This document shows positions 2,777 through 63,699 of a stretch of 64,000 bases of DNA, in pieces. Under the pieces are notes generated by a model. That model did not search any database, was not told the DNA's origin, and saw only the letters and a program-made list of their open reading frames with translations. A program made the position numbers and the translations under genes. This stretch comes from the human T2T-CHM13v2.0 reference genome, Homo sapiens. Numbering within the stretch: position 1 is the stretch's first letter; each line of letters starts with the position of its first letter. The stretch lies in assembly GCF_009914755.1 (NCBI RefSeq), contig NC_060929.1. One strand, written 5' to 3'.

Positions 2777-3136
<360 letters not shown>

Positions 3137-5123
3137 CTATTCCATTCCTTGATCTGTCTGCTAATTCTTGGCCCAGCATTACGTTGATTTAATTATTCAC
3201 ACTTTATAATATTTTAAAATATTTGGTGTTGTTAATCATGCTTTTCATTTTAATTATTCCATTTTTCAAAGCTATTTTCACTTACAAATACTTTATAAGT
3301 AATTTTTTATAACCTCTCTTGGGATTTTCATTGAAATTGAATTATATCTACAATTTAACTTGGGAAGAAACAAAATCTTTATAATATTCGGTCTTTCCAT
3401 CCAAACATTCCTTTTTCCCATTTAATCTTTCTTGAAGGCATTAATGTATTTCCTGGTGATTCTGGAGAAAACAGAAGTATTAATCAGTAGGCTTCCCTTT
3501 ATATATATACCTTAATTCCTAAGCACACCCAACCTTGATGACAAAGAAGTGTCTTTGAAAAGGAAAAAAAATAAATGGACATTGTGTGTTAGCTCCTCAT
3601 CGTTTGTTTACATCAGATTATAATAGCTCTCTATGTGTACCTAGGTGAGCAAAAATGTTAACAACAGTGGACCCCTCACCTCAGAACACAGATTTACACC
3701 AAACATCCCCTTAAAAGTTTTTTTAAAAATGACTCTGGTTTTGTCATTTCTCAATTTCCCACACTCATTACAGACTTCCTTTAGAATAATAAACAATAAA
3801 CTCTGTTATTAACTCAAATTTTATGTTTCTACTAAGCGAAATTCTAAACAACAGCAACAGTAATAACTACTATCTATTGAATATCTACTATGTTCTATCA
3901 TTAATCTTCAAAATAATCCTGCAGGATAGGTGGCTATATTCACCTTATAGGAAAGGAATCAAAAGCTTAGAGAGCAGAGGAGCAAATCCTTCCCTGCTCC
4001 GCGTTCAGCCACCCCAGCGATGCTTTATGCTTGTTTTTATTATTTGTAACACTTTGGGAAGTTATTAAAGGAAGATCTATTGCTTCCTCCTTTTGGGGTA
4101 GAACTGGATGGCAAAAAATAAAATAAAATAAAAATAAAAGCTTAGAGAGAAGCTCAAGATCACCCAGCTAGGTAATGCTGGAGAATCCAAATTCAGACCT
4201 AGCTCTCTCCCACTCAAGCTGACTCTCAAAATCATCATGATCACAGATAACTAAAATGATCTCTTAATATCCACCAAACCTGTGGCACCACTAGCTTTTG
4301 CCAATACTCTATATATGGAAAAGGTACTTTCCAATAGCCCTACAATCTTCCAAAGTTTGCTACTCTCTGTATTTTAAATACAAACAGGTAAATAAGTAAT
4401 GGGACATTGCTAAAAGTTGACTGGGGAAAGAAATACAAGCCACTGAACTGCTTTGATAGTATCTGCTCTTCAGGTTCTTACAGAGGAGGAGATTGGCTTC
4501 ACGTCCATAGTACACATCCCACTCCTACTCTACCTGCAAGTCCCCCCAGCCAGTGACCCAGCAGGATTCTATAAAACACAGACACACAATGTCAATGTTG
4601 TTGACTGCCTGGAAATTTTGAGTTTCTTTAGGGTAGTTTGATGTATTTGGGTAGGGAAACAGGATTGAATCACACAGCCTGGCCCTAAAATGTAGGGTTC
4701 TATCACTGAGTCCTTGGCTTAGGAAATGTAGTATTTGAAAATGTTGTGTGCTCATCCACTAGACCATGCCACAAATATTTTCAACCATACTCAATCTTCT
4801 ACAACCTTGTTTTCTAAAGTCTTCAAACACTCACTATAAGGAAATATTTCTTATATTTAATATAAATCTTACTTTTTGAGTCTTTTATAAATGAGAAGTA
4901 GGCCCCTTCTTGTAATAATTTTTCAAATACAGGAAAAGCGCTTTTTAGTCCCCACTTTCATCTATAGTCTATAAGCAGCTCAGCTGTTGTCAGCTCCAAA
5001 GTAGTTGATAAAAATCTTATATTTATAATACATACTTGCTCAGAAACTTGGCATTAATTTCAATTTCAAAAGTATCTTCATTAATCTTATAAATTACTGC
5101 AAAATCTGGAATAGCACCATCTC

Positions 5124-5468: not shown

Positions 5469-8400
5469 GCCAGAAAATGCCACAGATTTTCAAGAGGCAC
5501 TCTTATTATCATCTCTACAAGATGACTGAAAGTGACATTTTGAAAATATCTTTTAAACAGCTCCACCTCATGTCACTGCTGCTGAGATTTCTGACTCCTC
5601 CCTTCCGGCTCTTCAGTGACCTTCAGTGCCCACTGGATTCCAAAGCTCAATCCTCTGTGCAATGATTCCAACTCCAGGGATCAGTGTCTGAAGTGAAGCT
5701 ACAGATTGTCTGGTGGATAAATAATCCAAGAAGGAACGGGGGATGTTATGACTTTTTGAGAGAAGGCTAACATGTCATCCTTGACAGATAAACTTTAAAA
5801 AATTATAATAATGGAAATGAAGAAAGAAAACAACAGAAGATGAGAATAGCAAAAGAGCTAGACATTTCCGACAGGTAAGAAAATGGGAAACAAACCTCTA
5901 AAATGCTTAAGAAAAATATTGCAAATGTGTTTATCCAATGTGTATTTCATGTTAGAATAATCCAGTTTTAAAAAGTAAATGAAGATCATTAAAAATTGGA
6001 AATATAGTGCTTTTAGGCTAAATTGTACTAGATGCCTTTTTACATATATGATTTGAAAAACAACCCTACAGTTTCAGAATGCACTACTGTAAGAAAATTA
6101 TAAAAAGAAACCACCAAAAGCTAGTATTGGCACAATGGGGTTTTAATTACTTTATCTTTTAGTAAATAATCTTAAAAATCTGGTATACTTATTTTCATTG
6201 GCAGAGTTGAGATCTCCTTTCTTAATGCACTCAATGTTTTATTATTTTAAAGAACTGAAAACCCCCACATTCCTAAAATGATAAGTTCGGTTATTAACCT
6301 TCAAAGAAAATAAAAGTCAATTCAGACAAGCTGTGTTGGCTTGTTTTTAAAACAGTAGCTTTGAGAAGCATATATATTTTCCACTACCACTTTATATGGA
6401 TTCAGGCAATGGTCAAATTCAAGGAAAGAAAACATATAAACCATTTTCAGCAGAGAAAAATCAAAGTACATGTAATAAAAGAATGGTTGGGTCAAATGTA
6501 ATCCTCAAGTCTTAAAAGACAGCACACACTTCTGCAACAGATAGATATGAAATTTGATTTTTGGAATGGGTGAACAGTTGAATAACTTAAGGAGGTTTGC
6601 ATGATGTTGAATAACCAGGCCAATTATACTTTTTTAATAACGCTGTAAGAGATTAGGCATTTGTTTCTTGATGCTTAGTGCAGTTACTTAATGTAGTACT
6701 TTGTTCTTAGGGTAAGCTCTAAGATGTACCTTTACAGAGATTCTAGTCTATTTGTTTTCATGGAACACAAATGATTTATTTGACTGATCTTTTAAAAAAT
6801 GAAATGACCAAATAAACTAGAAATATTGCCTTGTATACGATTTAGGAAGTAGACGTCTGTTCCTGGCTCTGCAGCTAACTACACAACCATGAGTCAGTCA
6901 CTGGATCTTAGTTTCCATGTTTGTAAATCAGAAATAAAGTATCATTCCTATCTAGAGTACAGGGCTGCTGTAGAGATCAAGTAAGATAGCAAGCCTTGTC
7001 AGCACATGAATTATTGATGAATTAATTAATGAACAATGCAGTACTTTAAAAATCATTAAGCCCTGAAGACTATGAGACGTTATCTGCATCAGCACAACCA
7101 TAGAATCTGTACTCTTAGAGATTTAAGAAAAAGGAGAGAGAATTCTATGGGAGATGCTCACAGTGTGGTCCTACCCCATTTTGGGCTCCTCACATATATA
7201 CTTGGGGGTTGGGAGATGTACAAACTCTCTGAAGCCACAACTCTCTGAAGTTACATAACAGAATTTTGTTCATATAGAACGAATAGAAAATATTCTACTT
7301 CTTTGCTTTTAAAATTAACGACAGGAAATACAGAACTTGATATAAGAAATATAAAACAGGAGGCAATAGAAAATTGTGGAAAGAACACGGAACTCTCTGG
7401 AAGCCAGAAGACTTGGGCTCTGGTCCCTGTTCTGCTAATATTTAACTGCAATGCTGCAATATCTGTCAAATGAAAGGAATATATTAGAGGACCTTTATAG
7501 TCTCTTTCAGATCAAAGCACCATAGCCCCAAATGAAATAGAACAAATAATGTAAAATATAATTTTTCTATGCCATGGACAATTAAGGGAAAGGGGTAAAA
7601 CAAGAGTAAAGAATAAGACAGATGGACAGAAAGAGAGGAAGAGAGTAAATGGTAAGGAAAAAAACAGACAGACCAAAAGGCAGACACACACAAACTCTAC
7701 CCCCAGCTCTCTCCCCCTCAAAAAAAGAATTTTATGAATAAAGAGACAGAAGAAAGATACACACTAACAAAATGACATTCAGATGCAGAAATAAACATGT
7801 ACATAAAAACTTTGGTGGAATTATGCTCTTATTTTGTTCATCTTGAAACTTTTAAACACAAAACTACCCAAAAAATTTAACATACTGTTGTACTTTTATG
7901 TTAAAAGGCATAAACTGAATCAGTTCAAGGCAGGTGCCTCATGAGCTAGATACAATCAAGTTGAAGGTTTAGGATTAACTGCTGCCATATGCTACTGATA
8001 TTTTTTAGTAAAATGTCACTTGATAATTTGAGATCTCACTTCCATGGGTCAATTCCAACCAAACAAGCCAAAGATGAACTCTCCTAAAATAGAAATGAAT
8101 CCCAAGAATTTTTTTATGAACAGGGCTTAGTATTATTTTGCTTCCAGATAGGCAGGATTTAAATATTTTAACTTAATAGTTACCAGTTACATAAAGTGTA
8201 AATCCCACATTGCCATTTAAAGCCCAAATTTGGCCATTTTCCTATTTAATCTTCTCTGTATTGTGTAGAGGGTACTAGATAATGTAACTCCAGCACTCTC
8301 CTTTGATTCCCTCCTAAGATGAGGCCCTTCAGATCTATAGGCTTTTCTGAGCTCCAAGCTGAGATAGGAATTTATAGACTGGGGAGCTAATTTGTACTTT

Positions 8401-8945
8401 GCTACTAATCAGAATACAGGAGAGCAGAAGAATTGCCACCCAGTTTCAAGCCTGCTGTTGCAGGATTTTGAGTAATCCCCATTCACTATGAAGTCAGCCC
8501 AGATTGACAAGAATAGGCAACACAAGAGCTCTCGATGTTTATTCTCATCTTTATCTGCTAGGAACCCTGCAAAATTATATGAGTTTTCACATCTGTAAAG
8601 AGAAAACCTGCAGGATTCATAGGAAGCTTTTCTTTCTTGTAAATAATAAGAGCTTGGAAGAAAAAACACACAAGACTTTTCTGGTTTTGTTTGGTTTTAG
8701 CTAACTCCTTGGACTTTTCTGTACTTTGGTTTTTTCCTCTATGAAATGGAACTATAACAATCCCACTCCTCCCTAACACAACTGGTGATGGAAAAATAAA
8801 TAGCATAGCAGATATGAAAGCACTCATAGCTCTTTGGAGGATGAGGATTAGATCAGTTCAGTCCAAGTGTCTGAGACATGCAACAAGAATAACAACAACA
8901 ATAATGAGCACTTGGGTTTGAACAGTGTTTAACAGTTTATACAAT

Positions 8946-9410
<465 letters not shown>

Positions 9411-9877
9411 TTAAAATGTTTTAAATATATTATTTCATTGGCCTTTATAACAAGGTATGAAGTAGGGAGGCTATTTTTTATTTCATTTGACAGATAAAGA
9501 AATTGAGGCCAAGAGGAGAGTGCCTTGCCCCAGATCAAACAGCTAGTAAACAACAGGACATGTCTCCTGACACAAAATCTAGTGCTCATTCTAGTTTACT
9601 CAACTACATATGCAGTTAATGCCTATTTCCTTTCATTCCTATCCTCCTTTAAGTGAGGCTTGCTTGGTAGGAGGCCTCTAATTAGCAATCAAAGCTTTCT
9701 GTCTCTCATGTATAGTTCTAATCTATCAACTGTATAGAGAGCTTAAATTTTACTTGAAATTCTCCTTCAGCCAATATCTGTGAACTCTGGGTCTCATGAG
9801 TCATCCAGGCCTTAAACTTTCCTTTTGAATACCATTATTTATAAATTTTGCTATTTCTCTTATTACCACATAGCACG

Positions 9878-10310
9878 TGTTAAAGCAAACTAAATATAGC
9901 CTGAGAAGGACTCTGTACTTCTACATTTGAGTCCCTGTGGATGAACTGTAACCTAGCTTAATAGGCAGACAAGATTGAAAACCTAACCTAGGAGTATGCA
10001 CCTGTAACAATAGCTGAGTCTTAGCCAATCCCAGCGGCCATACTTCAACCACTCATAGACTGCTAAGCATTCAAACTATGTTCAAAGAAGGTAAACGTCA
10101 ACCTGTAATCAATCTAGCTGTTTCTGTACCTCACCTCCAATTTCTGGACATCACTTCCCTTTTTTTGATCTATAAATTTGTTCTGACCACGAGGCATCCC
10201 TGGAGTCTCTCTGAATCTGCTGTAATTCTGGAGGCTGCCTGATTCACAAATCGTTCATTGCTCAATTAAACTCCTTCAAATTTAATTCAGCTTAAGTTTT
10301 TCTTTTAACA
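9878..10310 (+). mobile_element. ERV1-class solo LTR (MER57-like)
   Basis: Starts TGTTAAAG and ends TTTTAACA (TG...CA termini); contains CCAAT (10025), TATAAA (10171) and ATTAAA (10265) in LTR order. Family name from recall. Confidence 0.75.
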
Positions 10311-10336
10311 CGTCTAAGCCACAGATCAGTTCCTTG

Positions 10337-10397
10337 GATCCTCCCTCCTCGGCCTCCCGAGTAGCTAGGACTACAGGTGTACACCACCACGCCCAGT
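10337..10397 (-). mobile_element. Short Alu fragment
   Basis: GATCCTCCCTCCTCGGCCTCCCGAGTAGCTAGGACTACAGGTGTACACCACCACGCCCAG. Confidence 0.8.
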
Positions 10398-11331
10398 TCA
10401 TCTGTGGTATTTTTATGCTGTTCCTCATTGTGTTATCCATTGTTGAAACCATGACAGACCTAACTATTCTTAAGGTGATTTCTTTCCAGTAAGAAACTGC
10501 TAAGCCTTAGATCTCAGAAAGAACGTGAGAAGAGGCCATCATAATTTCAAACAGCAAACAAAATTGCATTCCCTTTCATTCCTATTGCTCAGTTCCCTTT
10601 ATCAATGTTATTTATGTTGTTTTCTTCAAACTACTAAAGAATAAACCAAGATGAGGAGTACCCCCCCACCTCCGCCTTTGCTGTCTTTCAATGTTTTCTC
10701 TTTGGGCCAGAAATCCCAGCACTTTGAATGGCAGGGAATCCTTCAAGCCTGTTGTACATCCCGGTATGAATAATTCTACTGAATATAACCACCCTAAACT
10801 ATGCTGAGCCATAGAACCAGAGCCTGCCTTTCCTCTAGAAGTTAGAAGAAGAAAGCATCTGGAGGAAGGAAGAATTGGAGGAATGCTTTTTAAATGAAGT
10901 TAATTCTGGGTAATAGCTCACTAGACGCTGGCTGCCTTCCTTGCCTTAATCTCCAAAATCCGCAATGTACCCCGAAACTGCCTATGGCTTCAATCCCAGA
11001 GAGTGGAAGAAGTGAAAAGAGGAGAAGGCACATGCTATTCCATAGCAGATATGTTCTGTAATTCTGGCCCCCAAACTAAAGGCTGTAGACTGGCTCTGGG
11101 CAGTAGAGCTGACAAATTTTATTCAACATACATATACTGAGTACCTACTATGTGCTCTATGTTGGGGCTGAGGGACAAATTTAGATGTGTGTTCTCACTT
11201 AATCTTCACAACTACTCAGATAGATAGAGATTATTTATCCCCATTTTACAGATAAGAAAACAGAGGAGGAAGGGTAACTGACCTACAACAAAGTCAGACA
11301 AATACCAAGAAGTGATGCTCCAACTGGAACC

Positions 11332-11740
11332 TGTCTTAGTCCATGTGTGATGCTTTAACAAAATAACACAGACAAAATATCACAAGGTTATAAACAATAG
11401 AAATTTATTTCTCACAGTTTTGGAGGCTAGGAAGTCCAAGATCAAGGCACCAAAAGGTTCAGTGTCTGGTAAGGGCTCTTCTCTTCCAGAATGGCACCTT
11501 GTTGCTGTATACTCGCACAGCAGAAGGGACAGAAGAGGCAAACTCACTTAGGGTCTCCTTATAAAAGGAATGAGTTTGCCCTTACGAAGCCCTTTTATGA
11601 GGCCCTAATCCATTCATGAGGGCAGAGCCCTCATGGCCTAGTCACCTCCTAAAAGCCCTACCTCTTAATACTGTTGCATTGGGGATTAAGTTTCAACATG
11701 AATTTTGGAGGGAACACAAACATTCAAACAAACCATAACA
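11332..11740 (-). mobile_element. MaLR solo LTR (MLT1A/MST-like) inserted next to a MIR
   Basis: TGTCTTAGTCC...AATTTATTTCTCACAGTTTTGGAGGCTAGGAAGTCCAAGATCAAGG...ACCATAACA; exact 5-bp TSD GAACC at 11327-11331 and 11741-11745. Confidence 0.88.
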
Positions 11741-11861
11741 GAACCCAACTTCAAACACAGTACTCAGGCCTCCAAAGCACAATCCCTATCCTCCTGACTT
11801 TTTATAGTCCATTGAAGCAAGTGTGTGCATACTCAGGTGACCCTAAAAAAATACAGAAGTT

Positions 11862-12225
<364 letters not shown>

Positions 12226-12425
12226 CTATAGTTAACAAGATGCTGTTACATTCCTTGCCTCACTAGCTCTGAAGACTATACTAGCGGGACAAAGAAAGCA
12301 CCTGAGATGAGCTGAGAGGAGGGTAAAGGTACACAGAGATCCCCTGGATATTTGTTCTATGTCCTCTCAGGGGCTTTGCTACCACTAGAGAATTATCCAT
12401 ATTAAGAACTTGCATTGATATTCTG

Positions 12426-12445
12426 GGTTCTGTTTCATTTTTTAG
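12426..12445 (+). other. NPY6R: Probable splice acceptor of the NPY6R coding exon (exon starts 12446)
   Basis: Polypyrimidine tract TTCTGTTTCATTTTTTAG|G, 187 nt upstream of the ATG; NPY receptor genes typically have non-coding upstream exons. Confidence 0.6.
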
Positions 12446-12632
12446 GGTCTCAAGAGCACGCTCAAGTCATTCACATGTTTCCATCAAATACAGACACAGA
12501 TCAGGGAAGATTAAACCCTACTAATTTCTCGTCGGATGCCTCACAACAAGGTGCCTTCCAAGAACTAATGGCCAAAATATCCACCCACAACACAAATAAG
12601 CTTAGAAAATCTCTTCTTACAATCCTGACACA

Positions 12633-13744
12633 ATGGAAGTTTCCCTAAACCACCCAGCATCTAATACAACCAGCACAAAGAACAACAACTCGGCATTTTT
12701 TTACTTTGAGTCCTGTCAACCCCCTTCTCCAGCTTTACTCCTATTATGCATAGCCTATACTGTGGTCTTAATTGTGGGCCTTTTTGGAAACCTCTCTCTC
12801 ATCATCATCATCTTTAAGAAGCAGAGAAAAGCTCAGAATTTCACCAGCATACTGATTGCCAATCTCTCCCTCTCTGATACCTTGGTGTGTGTCATGTGCA
12901 TCCATTTTACTATCATCTACACTCTGATGGACCACTGGATATTTGGGGATACCATGTGCAGACTCACATCCTATGTGCAGAGTGTCTCAATCTCTGTGTC
13001 CATATTCTCACTTGTATTCACTGCTGTCGAAAGATATCAGCTAATTGTGAACCCCCGTGGCTGGAAGCCCAGTGTGACTCATGCCTACTGGGGCATCACA
13101 CTGATTTGGCTGTTTTCCCTTCTGCTGTCTATTCCCTTCTTCCTGTCCTACCACCTCACTGATGAGCCCTTCCGCAACCTCTCTCTCCCCACTGACCTCT
13201 ACACCCACCAGGTGGCCTGTGTGGAGAACTGGCCCTCCAAAAAGGACCGGCTGCTCTTCACCACCTCCCTTTTTCTGCTGCAGTATTTTGTTCCTCTAGG
13301 CTTCATCCTCATCTGCTACTTGAAGATTGTTATCTGCCTCCGCAGGAGAAATGCAAAGGTAGATAAGAAGAAGGAAAATGAGGGCCGGCTCAATGAGAAC
13401 AAGAGGATCAACACAATGTTGATTTCCATCGTGGTGACCTTTGGAGCCTGCTGGCTGCCCCGAATATCTTCAATGTCATCTTTGACTGGTATCATGAGGT
13501 GCTGATGAGCTGCCACCACGACCTGGTATTTGTAGTTTGCCACTTGGTTGCTATGGTTTCCACATGTATAAACCCTCTCTTTTATGGCTTTCTCAACAAA
13601 AATTTCCAAAAGGACCTGGTAGTGCTTATTCACCACTGCTGGTGCTTCACACCTCAGGAAAGATGTGAAAATATTGCCATCTCCACTATGCACACAGACT
13701 CCAAGAGGTCTTTAAGATTGGCTCGTATAACAACAGGTATATGA
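12633..13744 (+). pseudogene. NPY6R: Neuropeptide Y receptor Y6, frameshifted (290-aa truncated ORF 12633-13505; ancestral C-terminus continues in another frame to TGA at 13742-13744)
   Basis: Class A GPCR motifs GN (TM1), ANLSLSD (TM2), ERY (TM3), CWLP (TM6); N-terminal glycosylation sequons; NPY-Y1-family motifs TLMDHWIFG, LIVNPRGWKP, LQYFVPL. After CWLP the sequence reads CCC CG AAT ATC TTC AAT: one base missing near 13461 from PLNIFN. The shifted frame carries TM7 (CHLVAMVSTCINPLFYGFLNKNFQKDL). Restoring one base gives 1113 nt = 370 aa + stop. Confidence 0.97.
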
Positions 13745-14843
13745 AAATTGATAATGCTGAAGCTCTTCTTGAATGGGAGCTGGACAGGTAATGGTGGGAA
13801 TAGGGCAAGATGCAGAAAGAAGAAACCAGAACCAAAAATAGCAACTTTATACCCACTTTTCCTTTAGGCTAAGACTGCCTGTCTCATATGTCTATCCAAC
13901 ACACCCTCCAACATACACGAACACACATACCACCCCTTTTCTCTTAAGAAAATAACTCTAATAATTCAAACAACCTGCCCGCCATCATTTGTGGCAAAGA
14001 ATGAGAATGAGAAAGCAGAGAGAGAGGCAAACAGCAGTGATGGCTGGGGAACAATGTTCACAGATACTTTTATTCAATGGAATATCTACAAAAGTTATGA
14101 CTAATGATATGCCTAGTAAAAACACTGCTATACCTCCTTAGCACTGAAGCAAGTCTATTCTCAGATATGAAAACTGTAACTTTCAATCATATAACTATTC
14201 AATTAATTAGCCAAGTCAGAAAATCCCCCCTTAAAATTCATTAATTAATTAACAAACTAAGTTTGGACTAAAGTTGAAGGGCTGGTTTTAACTTAACATT
14301 TAAACGAAGTGTTGTAATTACAATTAATTCCCATGCTTGAATCATATCTCCAGTTTATGATAACAGTACATTTTATTCACTAACAATGCTATTAGAACTG
14401 GCCACAAATTCTTTAGCATAGCAATTATGCTAGAAATTGCTCTAACAAACTTATTAATGGCCAATGTAGATACAGCTTTCCTCACAAAGTGGCTTTTAAT
14501 CCCTAATTCTTTATGTATATTAAAAAGAGGTCATTATGACTCTATTACTGGATCTCAGAGACTTTGTCAGTAGCATTTTTATAATTAGCGCCAGATTTTT
14601 AAAACCTTCTCATATATCTTGTGGCTTAAACATTTTTAAAAGAGCCCTCATCCCCACAGAGTTGCTTACACAGGGGAATCAACTAGACTGTTCTCAAAAG
14701 ACACTAAGCTACTGTTCAAATTGCTATTAACTGAAGTCACTTTTATTAAATTGTGACCAGCTTTACCACTTCTTAGAACAAACCTCCCCTATATCTATCA
14801 AAGTTGAACTGCAGCTTATTTGTATGTTAAAAATGTAACTGTA

Positions 14844-15122
14844 GGCTGGACTCAGCAACTTACACCTGTAATCCCAGCCCTTTGGGAGGCCAAGGTGGAG
14901 GATCACTTTTGCCCAGGAGTTGAAGACCAGCCTGAGCAACACAGTGAGACTCCATCTCTACTAAAAATACAAAAAATTAGCCAGGTGTGGTCATGCATAC
15001 CTGCAGTCCCAGCTACTTAGATGAGAGGAAGGATCACCTGAGCCTGGGAGATCAAGTGAGTCATGATCACACCACTGCACTCCAACCTGGATGAAAGAGT
15101 GAGACCCTGTCTCAAAAAAAAA
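14844..15122 (+). mobile_element. AluJ-like element
   Basis: Diverged dimer with poly(A); TSD-like AAATGTAACTGTA / AAAGTAACTATA. Confidence 0.9.
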
Positions 15123-15149
15123 TTTTAAAAGTAACTATATTTTCTTTTG

Positions 15150-15333
15150 AATAAAAAGTAATGTTTCTGGAAACATCTGTGATTTTTCTATTGTGCTTTT
15201 TCTTGCACATTAGCTTTCACATTTTCCTCTCCTGAAAATCTCTTTCTCTCTTCCTCTTTCCCTCCTTCCCTTATTCTCTCTTTATTCATTCTCTTTAGGG
15301 TTTCTATTCTCTGTTTTATCATTTTGGAATAAA
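15150..15333 (+). terminator. Candidate NPY6R polyadenylation signals
   Basis: AATAAA at 15150-15155 (followed by T-rich sequence) and at 15328-15333; use not provable from sequence. Confidence 0.3.
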
Positions 15334-51767: not shown

Positions 51768-53873
51768 CACTAAATAATAAAATAGGCAAGCAAAAGAAAA
51801 TAAATGGAACAACACAATAAACTCTCCAACAAATCAAAATAACTTAAGCAACATTTTAAAAGAATGCAGAGTTTAGGTTATTGTATGAATTTAAAATATT
51901 CTCACTAATGTGACATTTTAATACATTTAAAATACTGTACATTGCTAAACCTGCTTTATCTTACTTCTCTTTCCTCTTTTTTTCCGAATGAAGCTACTGT
52001 CAAATTCTTCAGTTGTTCACTTTTAAATAGATCTAATGTCCTATTTTTCAGACCACTGAACCTATATAATATCCATGAAGCTAGTATAACTCTGCAGACA
52101 TCCTAGCTATTCAGGCAATGTTATAAAGGCATCATCATTGTTCATTTGTCTGATCTCTATGTATCTTGTCATCTTTCCAGGGTAAGATTGCCAAGGTCTT
52201 GGACTCTTCATTTGGTGGAGTCTAATTCTGTTCTCTTTACAAAGAGCTAGGGTTACACTCAGCAAAGGTTACCATTTACGTGAGACATGAAGCCGGCTAG
52301 CGTAACGCATCACCAAAGTAAAACCCCTGGCTATTTTTTCCCTCAAGGACATCCCCAGTGCCACATAAAATCAAGAAAGAACACTTCAGGATAGGTCACA
52401 CGTAGGGCCTGCATGTACTATGAACCCACACTTTCATTTTTATATTCTGGAGTGCGCTATTTTCAGAACAGTCAGACAAAGGGGTATTTTTCCTTTTGAA
52501 AAATCTCCTTTTCTCTCCCCTAGAGGAAAATACATGAGAATCAAATGTAAGAGACTACAGTGGCTTTAGCAAGAGAAGCCAATATTTAAGGGTGAGCTTT
52601 CTTTTAGAAATTATTCCTTTTTGTGTTTGGCTTTGCTTTATCATTTACTCAAATTAGTTATCAAAGATTTTTAATAAATAAATAATATTTTAAATTGTTT
52701 CAGTAATTTCTAAGACTCAGCTCATTATCTTTCAAACCTCTGCATTCTGAAGTGGCAGTCAAAGCCAGTGCCCTAAGTGCTGACTGCTTTTGCTTTAAGC
52801 ACTAACGTTCATCTTTCTTTCTCTTATCCTCGGATGGAAATTCATCTACTCTGGTAATTCTGAAAATTGGAGATTTTAAAGCATGATCGGGCTTCGAGAT
52901 TTTTTTTAAATGTTTAAAAATAGCAAATATTAAACCTAGAAGAAACCTTAGGGACCATCTCACTTCTGATATAACTGAGACCCCAAAAGTCTTGCCCAAA
53001 TCATAACTAATAAACGACAGCCATAAAACAGAATCCAGATTGCCTTAATCTTGAATTAGTGCTCTCTTTCACCATATTACTTGATCTTTCTATATTTTTA
53101 TCCATTTCAGATACAGATTATATAACTCAGCAATATGCCCAAAGTAAGATTCAGGGCATTTCTTTGTTCCATTAGTCATCACTGTCTTTTTTCATTGGTT
53201 GGAAGATCAGGGACAGGAAACAGGAAACTCCTTCTTGGCCTCCCCACCCCATGGATTAAATGGTAGCAGGGGCTGCCTGGTGCCTTGCCCATGAAGCTTG
53301 ACTATTCATGCTTAGAAGGAGGAGCATCATGAACATTAAGAAACCAGGTACAAAGACCCTTCTCTTTATAAAGATTGAATTTTCTCTTTTTTGTTTTCAT
53401 TAGCTTAAGGATATAAAACAATTTCAAGGTGGCAAAAGCCTGAATTCCACACACCACCAAAACTATTCTGCTCATCTTTTCCAGCTATTCCTTTGAGATG
53501 TGCCAGGAGCTTAGAGGATGTTTTATCCTCTTGCACCAACTGACCTTACACATTTACTTATAAGGCATGTTTCTTCCAAAAAGTTCCAGAAGTTTCATAT
53601 ATACTCTCTCATATGCTTCCCCCACAGGGGGAAGCATTTCATTTTTATTTTTTTGCCATAGCCAAAGTTTCCCTGTTGTTTCCAGGGTTTCTTTCCAGAG
53701 TTTGATGCTTAAAGTTTAGACTCTCTGGAAGTCACAAACATTCCCAAATGAAGTCTCAACCAATACTGCCAACAAAGCCAACTTATTCATTCAACAATTA
53801 CTTATTGAGCATCTCCTGTGTGCCTGGCACTATTCCAGACACTAGGGATTCAAGAGTGAACAAAACAGACTAA

Positions 53874-60206: not shown

Positions 60207-60297
60207 CTAGTCCGAGTGTAAATACAATACACTGGAACTAAATTGTATTAAAACCCAATGAGATTTAGAACAAATCTATTTTTTCTCTTTCTTGCAG

Positions 60298-60364
60298 GTG
60301 CTCAGGGAAGTAAGGAAGTTTTATCTCTGGAATTGTGGTTGAAATGTGCTACAGAAATTTCAGG
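60298..60364 (+). pseudogene. Palladin/myopalladin-like exon A (post-Ig1 linker), 67 nt, phase 1 to 2; putative vestigial upstream exon of myotilin
   Basis: Acceptor TTTTTTCTCTTTCTTGCAG|GT, donor CAGG|GTAAGT; open frame (G)AQGSKEVLSLELWLKCATEIS(G) joins in phase to exon B. Peptide similarity alone is weak; support comes from splice sites and phase. Confidence 0.65.
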
Positions 60365-60775
60365 GTAAGTGCAGAATCTCATGTGGATGTGCATTTGTTG
60401 CGTGTGAATATAGTGAAAGTTCCACTTTAAAAAATACCAAAAAAAAAAAAAAAACCTAAGACTTTGCAGACAAACTTTTAAGTGATTATTTGCTTTATAG
60501 GTTATTTCTTCTAGACAACGTGTTTCATAACACACCCTGATTACCAGACTGAGACAAAAGAAATTTAAAGTGAAACAATTAGGAACCATAATCCACTAAT
60601 AATTGGTTAAAAAGGCAAAAAAAGTATTAAAATGATTATGCAAATGTAGAGAAATTTAAGAATTATAGGTAAAAATGTGTGCTACATTCAAATGTGTATA
60701 CAGTGAGGCATTTCTATCAAAGTCGCCTCTAATCTTTCTTTCACTTGACGGTGTTTGGTTTTGTTTCCCCCACAG

Positions 60776-60893
60776 GATAAAGAAGAAAACCACTAGAGTT
60801 TCTCTGACCATCAGCTCCCCAACGAATGAAACCTCCAACAACAGATCAAGTTACTCTAACTTAGTTCAACAACTGTATATTAATCCCTAGAGG
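60776..60893 (+). pseudogene. Palladin-like exon B, 118 nt, phase 2 to 0, with in-frame TAG
   Basis: Acceptor TTTTGTTTCCCCCACAG|G, donor AGG|GTAAGT; encodes IKKKTTRVSLTISSPTNETSNNRSSYSNLVQQLYINP*R. KKTTRVSLTISS resembles palladin QKKTTSVSLTIGSS (recalled). Confidence 0.8.
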
Positions 60894-61590
60894 GTAAGTT
60901 CAGTTTTAAGCCTTCTGAGAGGGTCTTAGTAATGGAGACATAGGCCCAAGAAAAAGGAGTCAATGCAGTTTTCTTAAGAAGTATACAAGAAGAAAGCCTC
61001 TAGCTGCATGAACTCAAAAGAACAAGAAAGAAATCCATAGGTTTCAGAAATAACTCCATGGTAGCTCTATGGCTTGGCCCTTTGTTTGTGTGCCAGATAA
61101 GGGACAGTTGGTTTCTAGGAACTTGTTCCCATAAGAGAATATTCCAACTATCCGAGGAATGAATTCCCTTTTAATTTAAAAAAAAAGCGGGGGAGGGAGA
61201 TGCTTTTTTGGAAATCTAAAAGATCCAAGAAGAGCAATTGTATGGAGGAAGAAAAAAAATTTAGTAAAATTTAAACTTTTTTTAAATGTTTAATATATAG
61301 TATCTAAATACTTGCCAATATGCATTTCCCAAATATAATTGCCCAGTGTTGTATTTCTCCATCTCAGCTAATGGAATGCTGAAGGATAAAGAAGCAAGTG
61401 TAGCACACTGGAGCAAATACCCAAACTGACACTGAAATTAGAAGCATCATGCTTTTCATAAAGGAAAGTTAAGGTGTGGTCAGTAGCAGCTAGAACTGAG
61501 CCCGTCAGTTTCTGGCAACCATGGACCTGAGTTTCAGGGCTTTGACAGTATGAGTGACAGCACCATGTTCTCTTTTATTCCTTAAACCAG

Positions 61591-61653
61591 ATGCAGAGTC
61601 CCTGCAGCAGCCTGTCAGGATCCACTTGTGTAGTACCCTCTGTGTTTACCAAG
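61591..61653 (+). pseudogene. Palladin/myopalladin-like exon C (start of Ig2), 63 nt, phase 0 to 0
   Basis: Acceptor TTCTCTTTTATTCCTTAAACCAG, donor AAG|GTAACC; encodes MQSPCSSLSGSTCVVPSVFTK, compare palladin VHSPTSYL...PPVFTK and myopalladin QSPTNYL...APVFTK (recalled). Confidence 0.8.
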
Positions 61654-62843
61654 GTAACCTCTCCATACTGCATGATGGAGTTTAGATTTTATAAGTAAGT
61701 TTTAGACATTAGTGAAGCGGTGAGAAGAAAAAAAGGGGAAATCAGAAAGGATTTCAGAGATTATTATCACGTTATATATGAGAAAAAATGAGGCTGAAAA
61801 GGGGTGAAATGATTTGCTCAGTGTCACAGAGCAATTCATGGTTTACCCTGTGCTCTTTAGACTTCTGCTCTGTGGCCGTCCTCCACCTCTGGAGGGCAAT
61901 GCTTAGACTGTCCCCTCCAAGGAGACTGCTTTGCCTGACCTCAAAATATAGTCAAATTCTCTTAACTAGCCATAAAATGCCATTCTGAAGAAGTCAACAA
62001 GCAAAGTAGTAACTAAGTCCTGATTAGGTCACAGCCAGGAATCACTATCTTCCCTCTCACCCACTGGAAATAGCACAATTCAATCACCCCGGTCAAACCA
62101 AAACTAGGGCTAAGCCTTCTCTGGGCTCTCTGTCTCCCAATTACCAAACCTGGCAGAATTGGAATCAATGCCCATTGCTGGCTCAAAGTATGAAATGCAG
62201 GGCAGGGATTTAATCTGTACCAGATACAGGATGGGAGACAAACAAAACAATGTCATTAAGAGTAAGTGACATTGCTATTGATTCTGGAAGCTTGTTTTCA
62301 ACAGATGCTGTCACGTACATGTCTGTTATTTCTACAAGTCTCTCCTGCTGCATTCCTTCCCTATAAGATGCCTGAGACCTCTGGGCATCAAGCCTGAGGG
62401 TTAGGCTGGTCCTTAGTCTAACCTGTAGAAAGACCTCAGATTCCCGCTCTCTGGTCTCACTGCCAAGTTATAATCTGAAATATCATTCTAGATTCCAGGG
62501 TACTCTGGGGTTGCAGGTAGAGGGAGGAGAAAGATCAGGATTTAAGGGGTAAATTTAACATAAATGCCATCCATTCATTTATACATTGTGATACTAAACT
62601 AGCTAAAAACACTTTTTATATATCTGTATAACTCTTACTCTTTACAGGAAGTTTTCAGACCTTTGTGAAATGAACCTCAAAACCCCACATATTTTGCTAG
62701 CCCTATTTCATAGACAAAGAACCTGAGTTCCAGAGAAGTTAATAGTCTTTTCCAAGTTCCTATAACCAGCTTCAATCAGCCAGTGGCAGAGTTAATATTT
62801 TGGCCCAAGTTCCCTAATTCAGGGCTCTTAAGAAATTACAACA

Positions 62844-63188
62844 TAGTACTCACTTCGTTATCCAGTTTCACTTTCTGTGGTTTCAATAACCCACGGTCAA
62901 CTGCAGTCTGAAAATAGATGAGTAGAGTATAATAAGATATTTTAAGAGAAAGAGAGAGAGAGAGAACACATTCACATAACTCTTATTACAGTATACTGGT
63001 ATAATTGTTCTATTTTATTAGTTATTGTTGTTAATCTCTTACTATGACTAATTTATAAATTAAACTTTATCATAGGTGTGTATTACAGGAAAAAACACAG
63101 TGTACACAGGTTTCAGTACTATCCATGGTCTCGGGCATCCACTGAGGGTCTTGGAATGTGTCCCCTGCAGATAAGGGGTGATTACTGT
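62844..63188. mobile_element. MER44-like Tigger MITE
   Basis: TTATCCAGTTTCACTTTCTGTGGTTTCAATAACCCACGGTCAACTGCAGTCTGAAAATAG...GATAAGGGGTGATTACTG with degenerate TIRs. Confidence 0.85.
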
Positions 63189-63557
63189 ACTGCCCATGCT
63201 ACTGTGACCAATAATAAAGACTAAATCTGTGACTAGATATGTACTCAACAAAATAAATATAACAACAGAAGGAGTGTTCAACCAATCTGTTTTCTAATTT
63301 GAATAAAATGGCTCTTGGCCAAGTGAAATAATAACTTTCTCATTAAATATAATTCTATGAAGATAAAAATAATTTACACCTGACTGTAAAGCACACTACA
63401 AAGCCCAAAAGAATGCCCGACAGCGCCTTAAGATACAGTCAGCTGTCAATAATTATGATTTAAAAAAAGATGCACTCTTACTGCAAATGGCATTTCAAAT
63501 CATTGTAGATGGTATAACAGTTTCTTCCATCCTCTGAACTCTGTGTTTGTTCTTCAG

Positions 63558-63699
63558 CATCTTCAAGACATCCCTACAACCAGAGGTCAGTTGGTCATGT
63601 TTGAATGCGGAATCCAGGCCACAGCCACAGTTCAAGTTCACTGGTACAGAGAGAACGTGCAGATAGCCAACTCAGATGACTTTCGGATTCTGAGGAAAA
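63558..63699 (+). pseudogene. Palladin/myopalladin-like exon D (N-terminal half of I-set Ig2 domain), 142 nt, phase 0 to 1
   Basis: Acceptor TGTGTTTGTTCTTCAG|CAT, donor AAAA|GTATCA; encodes HLQDIPTTRGQLVMFECGIQATATVQVHWYRENVQIANSDDFRILRK with I-set B-strand Cys and C-strand Trp. Aligns without gaps to recalled myopalladin Ig2 MLQNLSASEGQLVVFECRVKGAPSPKVEWYREGTLIEDSPDFRILQK. Confidence 0.88.

What the first reader, a model, noticed from the sequence alone, without database searches (positions are those of the whole stretch)
60298..63699. Hidden four-exon chain encoding the palladin/myopalladin N-terminal region upstream of myotilin: a fossil or cryptic long myotilin
Seen: four + strand segments (67, 118, 63 and 142 nt) each have a polypyrimidine-AG acceptor and a GT donor. 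Their phases (1-2, 2-0, 0-0, 0-1) join into one frame: GAQGSKEVLSLELWLKCATEISG|IKKKTTRVSLTISSPTNETSNNRSSYSNLVQQLYINP*R|MQSPCSSLSGSTCVVPSVFTK|HLQDIPTTRGQLVMFECGIQATATVQVHWYRENVQIANSDDFRILRK. Established: MYOT lies just downstream of NPY6R on the same strand at 5q31. Myotilin has only two C-terminal Ig domains, whereas its paralogues palladin and myopalladin have five. The motifs KKTT.VSLTI.S, QSP...PxVFTK and LQ...GQ.V.FEC...V.WYRE...I..S.DFRIL.K occur in the same order in the palladin/myopalladin Ig1-Ig2 linker and Ig2. From memory the matching PALLD exons are also 67 and 142 nt (needs verifying). Inference: these are the ancestral 5' exons of MYOT, so myotilin's 'lost' N-terminus is still readable in the genome, and a longer myotilin isoform may be intact in other vertebrates.
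Basis: partly seen in the sequence, partly recalled or inferred. Interest (0 to 1): 0.92.

Follow-up and report, generated by a model that had tools for sequence, protein, structure and literature searches.

The report
Fossil third Ig domain of myotilin
Just upstream of the human myotilin gene lie the decayed but still spliced exons of an extra immunoglobulin domain that many other vertebrates appear to keep intact, so myotilin probably began as a longer, palladin-like protein.

Summary
The four + strand exons (67, 118, 63 and 142 nt) have AG/GT borders and join in one frame, with a TAG in exon 2.

Homology to PALLD/MYPN is real:
- The exon 4 peptide is the first half of an I-set Ig domain.
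- Its best matches in the whole human genome, after itself, are one exon on chr10 (taken as MYPN) and one on chr4 (PALLD), ahead of a chr2 cluster taken as titin.
- PALLD has the same exon series with the same phases: 67, 106, 75 and 142 nt. An Ig1 exon lies upstream, so this is the Ig1-Ig2 linker plus Ig2.

Two more exons lie outside the window (66292-66431 and 66532-66770 on the window's scale).

In other mammals and reptiles, gene models splice this unit into MYOT exon 2, giving three-Ig "myotilin isoform X2" proteins of about 600-814 aa. Other models end it as a ~240 aa "palladin-like" protein. A tree puts mammal, reptile, bird and fish copies in one clade apart from PALLD/MYPN (support 100/100).

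The human copy is dead as a coding unit. It has ATT where the others have the start ATG, two internal TAGs, a frameshift, and TAG at the junction with MYOT. RefSeq annotates it as lncRNA LOC107986368.

I found no paper describing it. All evidence from other species is predicted models only.

The parts
60298..60364 (+). Exon 1, 67 nt, phase 1-2. It is the counterpart of the 67-nt PALLD exon between Ig1 and the KKTT exon. In other mammals only its last 7 nt are coding.
   Evidence: Borders. The PALLD exon C4:172040308-172040374 is 67 nt with AG/GT and the same phases. There is no pairwise sequence similarity, so the homology rests on position, length and phase.
60357..60359 (+). ATT where the other mammals' and reptiles' models have their start ATG.
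   Evidence: All 16 fetched non-primate mammal and reptile models that include this junction have Met two residues before the [IT]K[KRQ]K motif. The macaque model P0029 and the unnamed record P0027 also lack this Met.
60776..60893 (+). Exon 2, 118 nt, phase 2-0: the serine-rich linker with KKTTRVSLTISS.
   Evidence: It is 68-74% identical to other mammals. Against the 106-nt PALLD exon C4:172041974-172042079 it shows 11 of 19 identities, E 6e-5.
60888..60890 (+). In-frame TAG.
   Evidence: At this alignment column, 12 of 13 intact rows that have this exon carry Q and one carries R. P0027 and P0029 carry W.
61591..61653 (+). Exon 3, 63 nt, phase 0-0: MQSP...VFTK. Its ATG is the start of some models in other species.
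   Evidence: It is 73-86% identical to other mammals. Counterparts are PALLD 75 nt and MYPN 72 nt, both phase 0-0, both with xSP near the start and ending in PVFTK.
63558..63699 (+). Exon 4, 142 nt, phase 0-1: the first half of the I-set Ig domain (strands A-C'). The unit continues outside the window. On the window's scale these parts are: exon 5 at 66292-66431 (L009 2292-2431, second half of the Ig, TAG at 66420-66422 after a 1-nt deletion); exon 6 at 66532-66770 (L009 2532-2770, linker, ends TA|gtaaag); and the open 70 codons of MYOT exon 2 at 74875-75085 (L013 875-1085).
   Evidence: The MYPN and PALLD counterparts are exactly 142 nt with the same phases. Outside parts. Pfam I-set positions 54-84 of 90, 25.9 bits, for exon 5.
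63644..63645 (+). Inner GT that the annotated human lncRNA uses as donor (its exon 4 is 63558-63643, 86 nt). This breaks the ancestral frame.
   Evidence: Hub annotation table.

Best explanation
These exons are the human remnant of the Ig1-Ig2 linker and Ig2 module of an ancestral, palladin-like MYOT gene. MYOT, PALLD and MYPN are old paralogues. The MYOT copy lost Ig1 and Ig3 but kept this module upstream of what is now the canonical gene.

In other vertebrates the module is still coding. Exons 1-6 encode a serine-rich linker and one I-set Ig domain. From there the models show two outcomes:
- The transcript ends just after exon 6, reading TGG TAA through the donor. This gives a single-Ig protein of about 240 aa.
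- Exon 6 splices TG|G into MYOT exon 2. The 70 codons before the canonical ATG then serve as linker, giving a three-Ig myotilin.

Canonical two-Ig myotilin comes from an internal promoter (MYOT exon 1 at 72286). This resembles the nested promoters of PALLD.

In the human lineage the module decayed. The start ATG is lost. There is a TAG in exon 2. The exon 5 acceptor region is altered. A 1-nt deletion is followed by a TAG in exon 5. The MYOT junction reads TAG. Some of these changes are shared with a macaque model. The splice signals survive, so the exons are still joined into a non-coding RNA, LOC107986368.

Shown here: the homology, the exon structure, the human lesions, and the open orthologous models.
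Inferred: expression of either product in other species, the internal-promoter history, and the timing of the loss.
For: Homology to PALLD/MYPN:
- In a whole-genome search, the best non-self matches of exon 4 are the C10 (MYPN) and C4 (PALLD) exons.
- Exon series are 67/118/63/142 nt on chr5 and 67/106/75/142 nt in PALLD; MYPN has 72/142 nt. All have AG/GT borders and equal phases.
- An Ig1 exon lies upstream in both paralogues.
- Exons 4 and 5 together cover I-set positions 7-84 of 90.

Intact relatives:
- Of the 120 rows listed, 22 are forms of 603-814 aa. Most are named myotilin. They come from mammals and reptiles.
- All 12 of these that I fetched contain this module followed by canonical myotilin sequence.
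- Three I-set stretches were found in P0007 and in P0180.
- One search gave 159 proteins of 132-420 aa. Most of those listed are single-Ig models of ~230-250 aa from mammals, about 96 birds and some fishes.
- In the tree, 18 MYOT-linked rows are split from 7 PALLD/MYPN rows with 100/100 support, and the order within the clade follows the species tree.
- 37 of 160 alignment columns are invariant from fish to mammals.

Link to MYOT:
- The human MYOT exon 2 frame is open for 70 codons before the ATG and aligns with the long models.

Human decay:
- Lesions are shown.
- Human differs at 5 of the 37 invariant columns.
- Human versus P0027 identity is 84.6% (121 of 143). That is lower than between placental orders: Pseudorca-Dasypus 88.8%, Pseudorca-Heterocephalus 89.4%.
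Against: - Every non-human sequence is a computed gene model. I saw no transcript, junction or peptide evidence.
- Long and short models may be alternative guesses by the annotation pipelines rather than real isoforms.
- Exon 1 and exon 3 give no significant pairwise match to PALLD/MYPN.
- Whole-genome searches with exons 2 and 3 found only themselves.
- I did not find the KKTT exon in MYPN.
- Naming the C10 locus MYPN rests on recalled map position. With a single MYPN row, the tree does not separate it from PALLD.
- Linkage of the bird and fish copies to myot was not checked.
- The macaque model P0029 and the unnamed record P0027 keep an open frame of 241-262 aa with an I-set score of 53.6 bits. 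Loss of coding in Old World monkeys is therefore not shown.
- Only one human haplotype was read.
Confidence: 0.85

Rival explanations
1. The unit is, in living species, only a free-standing neighbour gene: a ~240 aa single-Ig 'palladin-like' protein split off from the ancestral gene. On this view the long 'myotilin isoform X2' models are read-through artefacts, and the human copy is a unitary pseudogene of that small gene.
For: - Many pipelines model it as a separate gene of 230-250 aa ending ...QPQW, with a stop right after.
- The human lncRNA ends at 67040, short of MYOT (hub table).
- Birds and fishes appear only as short models.
Against: - Long models occur in 22 of the 120 listed rows, from several annotation sources.
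- The W codon is split TG|G exactly at MYOT exon 2's first base.
- The 70 codons before the MYOT ATG are open in human and align with the long models.
- The whole long protein is collinear with PALLD.
Confidence: 0.25
2. The human exons persist because the spliced RNA or its promoter has a regulatory role, for MYOT or for the antisense PKD2L2-DT. Coding decay would then be irrelevant to their retention.
For: - The AG/GT signals of all four exons are intact.
- RefSeq models a spliced lncRNA, an antisense lncRNA and two enhancer elements in intron 3 (hub table).
Against: - Nothing I ran tests expression or function.
- Splice signals can simply outlive the frame for tens of millions of years.
- The annotated model uses an inner donor in exon 4.
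Confidence: 0.15
3. Human still makes a small protein from the ATG of exon 3 (a cryptic Ig protein).
For: Exon 3 begins with ATG. The frame stays open through exon 4 and most of exon 5. Models in some species start at this Met.
Against: - The frame stops at 66420-66422, before the last Ig strand.
- The invariant G of the DSGxF motif is E in human.
- The annotated transcript breaks the frame at 63643 (hub table).
Confidence: 0.04
4. It is a recent duplicated or retrocopied fragment of PALLD or MYPN that landed by chance next to MYOT.
For: The best paralogous hits are PALLD and MYPN.
Against: - Introns are kept at the paralogous positions.
- Identity to PALLD/MYPN is only 42-55%.
- The clade includes fish, birds, reptiles and mammals and lies outside PALLD/MYPN with 100/100 support.
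Confidence: 0.01

Closest known systems
N-terminal Ig2 module of the 200-kDa palladin isoform and of myopalladin
   Same: - Same order of exons: 67-nt exon, KKTT..VSLTI exon, xSP...PVFTK exon, 142-nt first half of the Ig, then the second half.
- Same phases.
- I-set fold.
- Shared motifs such as DFRIL.KK and PEE.CTL.I.E.F.ED.G.F.C.
   Different: - Only 42-55% identical.
- No Ig1 or N-terminal region upstream.
- The 24-nt microexon of PALLD/MYPN is fused to the next exon here.
- The PALLD region aa 1-528 binds CARP and FHOD1 (PMC10069870, passages read). Nothing is known about binding for this unit.
Canonical myotilin (two Ig domains, serine-rich N-terminus)
   Same: Same locus and strand. In the models of other species the unit is spliced to MYOT exon 2 and shares all downstream exons.
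   Different: Papers describe myotilin as having two Ig domains and as the smallest family member (PMC5479843, passages read). The long models have three Ig domains and about 270-310 extra N-terminal residues.
Nested promoters of PALLD giving 200-, 140- and 90-kDa isoforms
   Same: An upstream promoter gives a form with extra N-terminal Ig. An internal promoter gives the shorter common form (PMC7333403 abstract and PMC10069870 abstract for PALLD; inferred here for MYOT).
   Different: For MYOT the upstream form is only predicted, and in human it is dead.
Unitary pseudogenes transcribed as lncRNA (for example the neighbour NPY6R, a transcribed pseudogene in the hub table)
   Same: - It sits at the ancestral position with introns.
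- Its counterparts elsewhere are intact.
- It carries stops and a frameshift in human.
- It is still transcribed and spliced, according to the annotation.
   Different: Here only the 5' module of a gene has died, while the 3' part (MYOT) remains an essential coding gene.

Membership tests
Immunoglobulin I-set domain (Pfam PF07679) | Profile match above the curated cut-off | tested here: met
   Exon 4 scores 27.5 bits and exon 5 scores 25.9 bits, against a cut-off of 23.7. They cover positions 7-50 and 54-84 of 90. Intact orthologues score 66-68 bits over positions 1-90.
Immunoglobulin I-set domain (Pfam PF07679) | Complete domain with both core cysteines and the last strand | tested here: not met
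   Both cysteines are present (FEC and FKC). The human frame stops before the last strand, and the invariant G of the DSGxF motif is E.
Palladin/myopalladin/myotilin family, Ig2 module | Closest paralogues genome-wide are PALLD and MYPN | tested here: met
   ranks 2 and 3 of 10 matches, ahead of the C2 cluster. One search gives the same result for the second half of the domain.
Palladin/myopalladin/myotilin family, Ig2 module | Shared intron positions and phases | tested here: met
   The 67- and 142-nt exons are identical in length. The other exons differ by multiples of 3. All have AG/GT borders. One intron, after the microexon, is absent here.
Palladin/myopalladin/myotilin family, Ig2 module | Position after Ig1 in the paralogues | tested here: met
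   Ig1 exons lie at C4:172027165 and C10:69011765, upstream of the matching exons.
Long (three-Ig) myotilin isoform | Open frame from the unit into MYOT exon 2 | tested here: not met
   Human: TA|G makes TAG at the junction, in addition to the earlier stops. Other species: met in the 12 models fetched, which are predictions only.
Long (three-Ig) myotilin isoform | Transcript or protein evidence | not testable with these tools
   No RNA-seq, long-read or proteome data are on hand.
Unitary pseudogene | Disabling changes at an ancestral, intron-bearing locus whose orthologues are intact | tested here: met
   Lesions. Orthologues. The caveat is that the orthologues are models.

The most novel reading that the evidence does not exclude
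Most vertebrates make, from the myotilin locus, an Ig2-bearing product that has never been studied. It would be a three-Ig long myotilin, a free ~240 aa single-Ig muscle protein, or both. Catarrhine primates, humans included, have lost it. The palladin family would then have a further functional member or isoform. Human muscle would differ in this respect from dog, pig, guinea pig, lizard and fish muscle. The '5' UTR' of human MYOT exon 2 would be former coding sequence.
Probability: 0.55. Interest if true: 0.7.

Novelty: new variant of a known kind. Interest (0 to 1): 0.6.

Why it matters
- Domain history. Papers treat myotilin as a two-Ig protein (PMC5479843, passages read). If the long models are real, its gene began as a palladin-like gene and still encodes a third Ig domain in many animals.
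- A candidate unstudied muscle protein, present in common large-animal models but absent in human. This bears on how well such animals model myotilin disease.
- It explains what lncRNA LOC107986368 is.
- It explains why 70 codons ahead of the MYOT start are open.
- It adds a gene-part loss next to NPY6R, itself a transcribed pseudogene in the hub table.
- It makes one question directly testable: what does the N-terminal Ig2 module of this family do? The known partners of the PALLD region are CARP and FHOD1 (PMC10069870, passages read).

Tried and rejected
- PDB sequence search with exon 4. The best hits are titin. Palladin Ig3 reaches only E about 0.6. No solved Ig2 of PALLD or MYPN appeared, so this could not decide the question.
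- Whole-genome searches with the exon 2 and exon 3 peptides. Both found only themselves, plus one chance hit. These exons are too short and too diverged for that tool.
- BLASTP of exon 3 against the MYPN exon and of exon 1 against the PALLD exon. No alignment.
- Pfam on exons 1-3, on exon 6 and on the MYOT exon 2 extension. No family.
- tblastn and a motif scan for a KKTT exon in MYPN between Ig1 and the VFTK exon. None found.
- tblastn with the N-terminal parts (including Ig1) of three palladins and with the Ig3 region of chicken palladin, against window 1-94000. Only cross-hits to the Ig exons already known, so no further remnants.
- Reading as a retrocopy or late duplicate. Rejected.
- Earlier findings of this scan.
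- Papers: 0 for LOC107986368; 0 with both 'myotilin' and 'palladin-like'. In some searches none of the listed titles or abstracts concerns a longer myotilin; I did not open those papers.
Full report
OBSERVATION

The four + strand segments are as described:
- 60298-60364 (67 nt)
- 60776-60893 (118 nt)
- 61591-61653 (63 nt)
- 63558-63699 (142 nt)

Each has a pyrimidine-rich AG acceptor and a GT donor.

According to the hub's table, RefSeq already joins these exons into the predicted lncRNA LOC107986368. That model starts at 60288 and ends exon 4 at an inner GT (63643), which breaks the frame.

HOMOLOGY WITH PALLD AND MYPN

The exon 4 peptide passes Pfam I-set (27.5 bits, cut-off 23.7, profile positions 7-50 of 90).

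I searched it against the whole human genome in six frames and got 10 matches:
- itself
- C10:69027313-69027450 (48% identity, E 4.1e-7)
- C4:172049581-172049718 (41% identity, E 2.5e-5)
- seven weaker hits on C2 near 179.2 Mb, which I take to be titin (recalled position)

The spliced C4 exons translate into a peptide that aligns throughout with proteins named palladin from chicken, lizard and fishes, so C4 is PALLD. I call the C10 locus MYPN from its recalled map position.

Exon borders read from the genome, all AG/GT:

| Gene | Exon lengths (nt) |
|---|---|
| PALLD | 67, 106, 75, 142, 24, 120 |
| MYPN | (not found), 72, 142, 24, 117 |
| chr5 | 67, 118, 63, 142, 140 |

- The phases are the same in all three genes.
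- An Ig1 exon lies upstream in both paralogues.
- Exon 2 matches the PALLD exon at 11 of 19 residues (E 6e-5, single comparison).

Results against:
- Exons 1 and 3 give no pairwise BLASTP match.
- Exons 2 and 3 found only themselves in the whole genome.
- I did not find the KKTT exon in MYPN.
- For exon 1 the case rests on place, length and phase. For exon 3 it rests on the xSP...P.FTK pattern, kept in all rows of the alignment that include the exon except a few substitutions.

One structural difference: PALLD and MYPN have a 24-nt microexon between the two halves of Ig2. Its equivalent on chr5 is continuous with the next exon.

BEYOND THE WINDOW

The window's genome could be read further. Coordinates here are on the window's scale.
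- The second half of the Ig domain lies at 66292-66431. It matches I-set positions 54-84 at 25.9 bits and is 74-91% identical to other mammals.
- A linker exon lies at 66532-66770.
- MYOT exon 2 begins at 74875. Its frame is open for 70 codons before the canonical ATG at 75086. This stretch aligns, in one HSP of 78-82% identity with the canonical N-terminus, to long models of four mammals.
- I found no remnant of Ig1, of the palladin N-terminus or of Ig3 anywhere in positions 1-94000.

OTHER VERTEBRATES

Three searches of the protein collection returned many models that contain this unit with an open frame.

- One search gave 23 proteins, among them 'myotilin isoform X2' of 806 aa (naked mole-rat, guinea pig) and 814 aa (tenrec), and 'palladin-like' models of about 240 aa.
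- One search gave 377 proteins, of which 120 were listed.
  - 22 of the listed rows are forms of 603-814 aa: 13 mammal rows and 9 reptile rows, most of them named myotilin.
  - The other 98 listed rows are palladins of 1097 aa or more.
- All 12 long forms that I fetched run from the unit into canonical myotilin sequence. Two that I scanned have three I-set stretches.
- One search gave 159 proteins of 132-420 aa, of which 120 were listed.
  - By my count about 96 listed rows are birds, at about 232 aa.
  - The rest are mammals (dog, lion, opossum, horse, pangolin, beaver and others), a macaque, four unit-type fish models and two fish palladin fragments.

I aligned 26 rows and built a tree of 25. 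The macaque isoform was left out because it is an exon-skipped near-copy of P0027.
- The 18 MYOT-linked rows are separated from the 7 PALLD/MYPN rows by a branch with 100/100 support.
- Inside the clade the order is fish, then birds and reptiles, then opossum, then placentals.
- Among 16 intact rows, 37 of 160 columns are invariant from fish to mammals.

The unit is therefore an old third paralogue, not a late copy. It has been kept as coding sequence for a very long time, to the extent that models can be trusted.

The long proteins are collinear with palladin over their whole length:
1. linker
2. Ig2
3. the FNY.RPK block
4. the SPA.FLSS.LPS block
5. the EIQG.K..IQDLERKL block
6. the last two Ig domains

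THE HUMAN COPY

Compared with the intact rows, human has these changes:
- ATT at 60357-60359, where all 16 fetched non-primate mammal and reptile models that include this junction have Met.
- TAG at 60888-60890, where 12 of 13 rows have Q.
- An altered acceptor region and a 3-nt loss at the start of exon 5.
- A 1-nt deletion followed by TAG at 66420-66422, which removes the last Ig strand.
- TA instead of TG at the end of exon 6, so joining to the G of MYOT exon 2 gives TAG instead of W.

These are shown.

Human differs at 5 of the 37 invariant columns. Three of those positions are also changed in the macaque model P0029 and in the unnamed record P0027.

Human and P0027 are 84.6% identical (121 of 143). 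That is less than whale versus armadillo (88.8%) or whale versus mole-rat (89.4%). The two primate-type rows also have the longest paths among placentals. This fits relaxed constraint in this lineage. That it equals the neutral rate is my estimate, not a computed test.

Against a simple 'dead in all catarrhines' reading: P0029 and P0027 keep open frames of 241-262 aa, with a new N-terminus in another frame of exon 1 and an upstream exon. They still score 53.6 bits for I-set.

HOW IT MOST LIKELY WORKS

In species with an intact unit, an upstream promoter drives exons 1-6.
- Read-through of the exon 6 donor (TGG TAA) ends a single-Ig protein of about 240 aa.
- Use of the donor (TG|G) leads into MYOT exon 2 and a three-Ig myotilin.

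The same nucleotides in human DNA (caa tag taa agg) fit both kinds of model.

The familiar two-Ig myotilin starts from the internal first exon at 72286. Whether both products are made is not shown.

In human the unit cannot encode either product and is left as a spliced non-coding RNA.

By analogy with PALLD residues 1-528, which bind CARP and FHOD1 (PMC10069870, passages read), the intact module may add such contacts. This is a guess.

WHAT IS KNOWN

- PMC5479843 (passages read) states that myotilin has two Ig domains and palladin and myopalladin up to five.
- In PMC8062120, none of the 12 passages returned for 'isoform', 'homolog' and 'evolution' mentions a longer form.
- Searches for LOC107986368 and for 'myotilin' together with 'palladin-like' found no paper.
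- Two broader searches listed nothing whose title or abstract concerns a longer myotilin. I did not open those papers.
- The library lacks most subscription journals, and I saw no supplements.
- The long and short forms do exist as predicted records in public protein sets. The thing is therefore in the databases but, as far as I could find, not described.

LIMITS

- No transcript, proteome or multi-species DNA data were available.
- There is no dN/dS.
- Mouse and rat status is unknown.
- Linkage to myot in birds and fishes was not checked.
- Only one human haplotype was read.

Noticed in passing
L009 2292-2431 and 2532-2770 (window scale 66292-66431 and 66532-66770, outside the window): These belong to the finding but lie outside the window. 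Exon 5 is the second half of the Ig domain, with a TAG at L009 2420-2422 after a 1-nt deletion. Exon 6 is the linker and ends TA|gtaaag where other species read TG|G.
   Followed up: yes
L013 875-1085 (window scale 74875-75085, outside the window): The part of MYOT exon 2 ahead of the canonical ATG is an open frame of 70 codons, in frame with the ATG. It aligns with the linker of long myotilin models of four mammals, so this human '5' UTR' looks like former coding sequence.
   Followed up: partly
L021 244-267 (C4:172050244-172050267) and L017 3553-3576 (C10:69030553-69030576): PALLD and MYPN each have a 24-nt microexon (encoding KPRSTAEP and KPRSMAEP) with AG/GT borders, inside the intron that splits Ig2. 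In the MYOT-linked unit the same 8 codons are continuous with the next exon, so one intron has been lost or gained.
   Followed up: partly
window 53518-53550 +: The first 11 residues of the macaque model P0029 match here at 100%. This suggests an upstream first exon about 6.7 kb before exon 1 and would explain why exon 1 keeps an acceptor. After residue 11 the human sequence differs from the macaque frame by one base.
   Followed up: partly
window 60887-62907 and 63482-63689, minus strand: According to the hub's table, exons of the antisense lncRNA PKD2L2-DT overlap the end of exon 2, intron 2, exon 3 and most of exon 4. Two RefSeq enhancer elements lie in intron 3 (62759-62838, 62869-62918).
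   Followed up: no
protein P0003: An unnamed 138-aa record reads straight from intron 3 into exon 4 (100% identical over exon 4). It looks like an unspliced ORF call, not a real protein.
   Followed up: no
L009 about 2990-3200 (window scale 66990-67200): A repeat that looks like an Alu (recalled consensus) starts about 220 nt after exon 6. The annotated end of the lncRNA (67040) falls inside it.
   Followed up: no
window 5615-15173 +: NPY6R, annotated as a transcribed pseudogene, is the upstream neighbour. Two adjacent units on this strand have therefore lost coding capacity in the human lineage. That NPY6R is functional in some other mammals is recalled, not checked.
   Followed up: no
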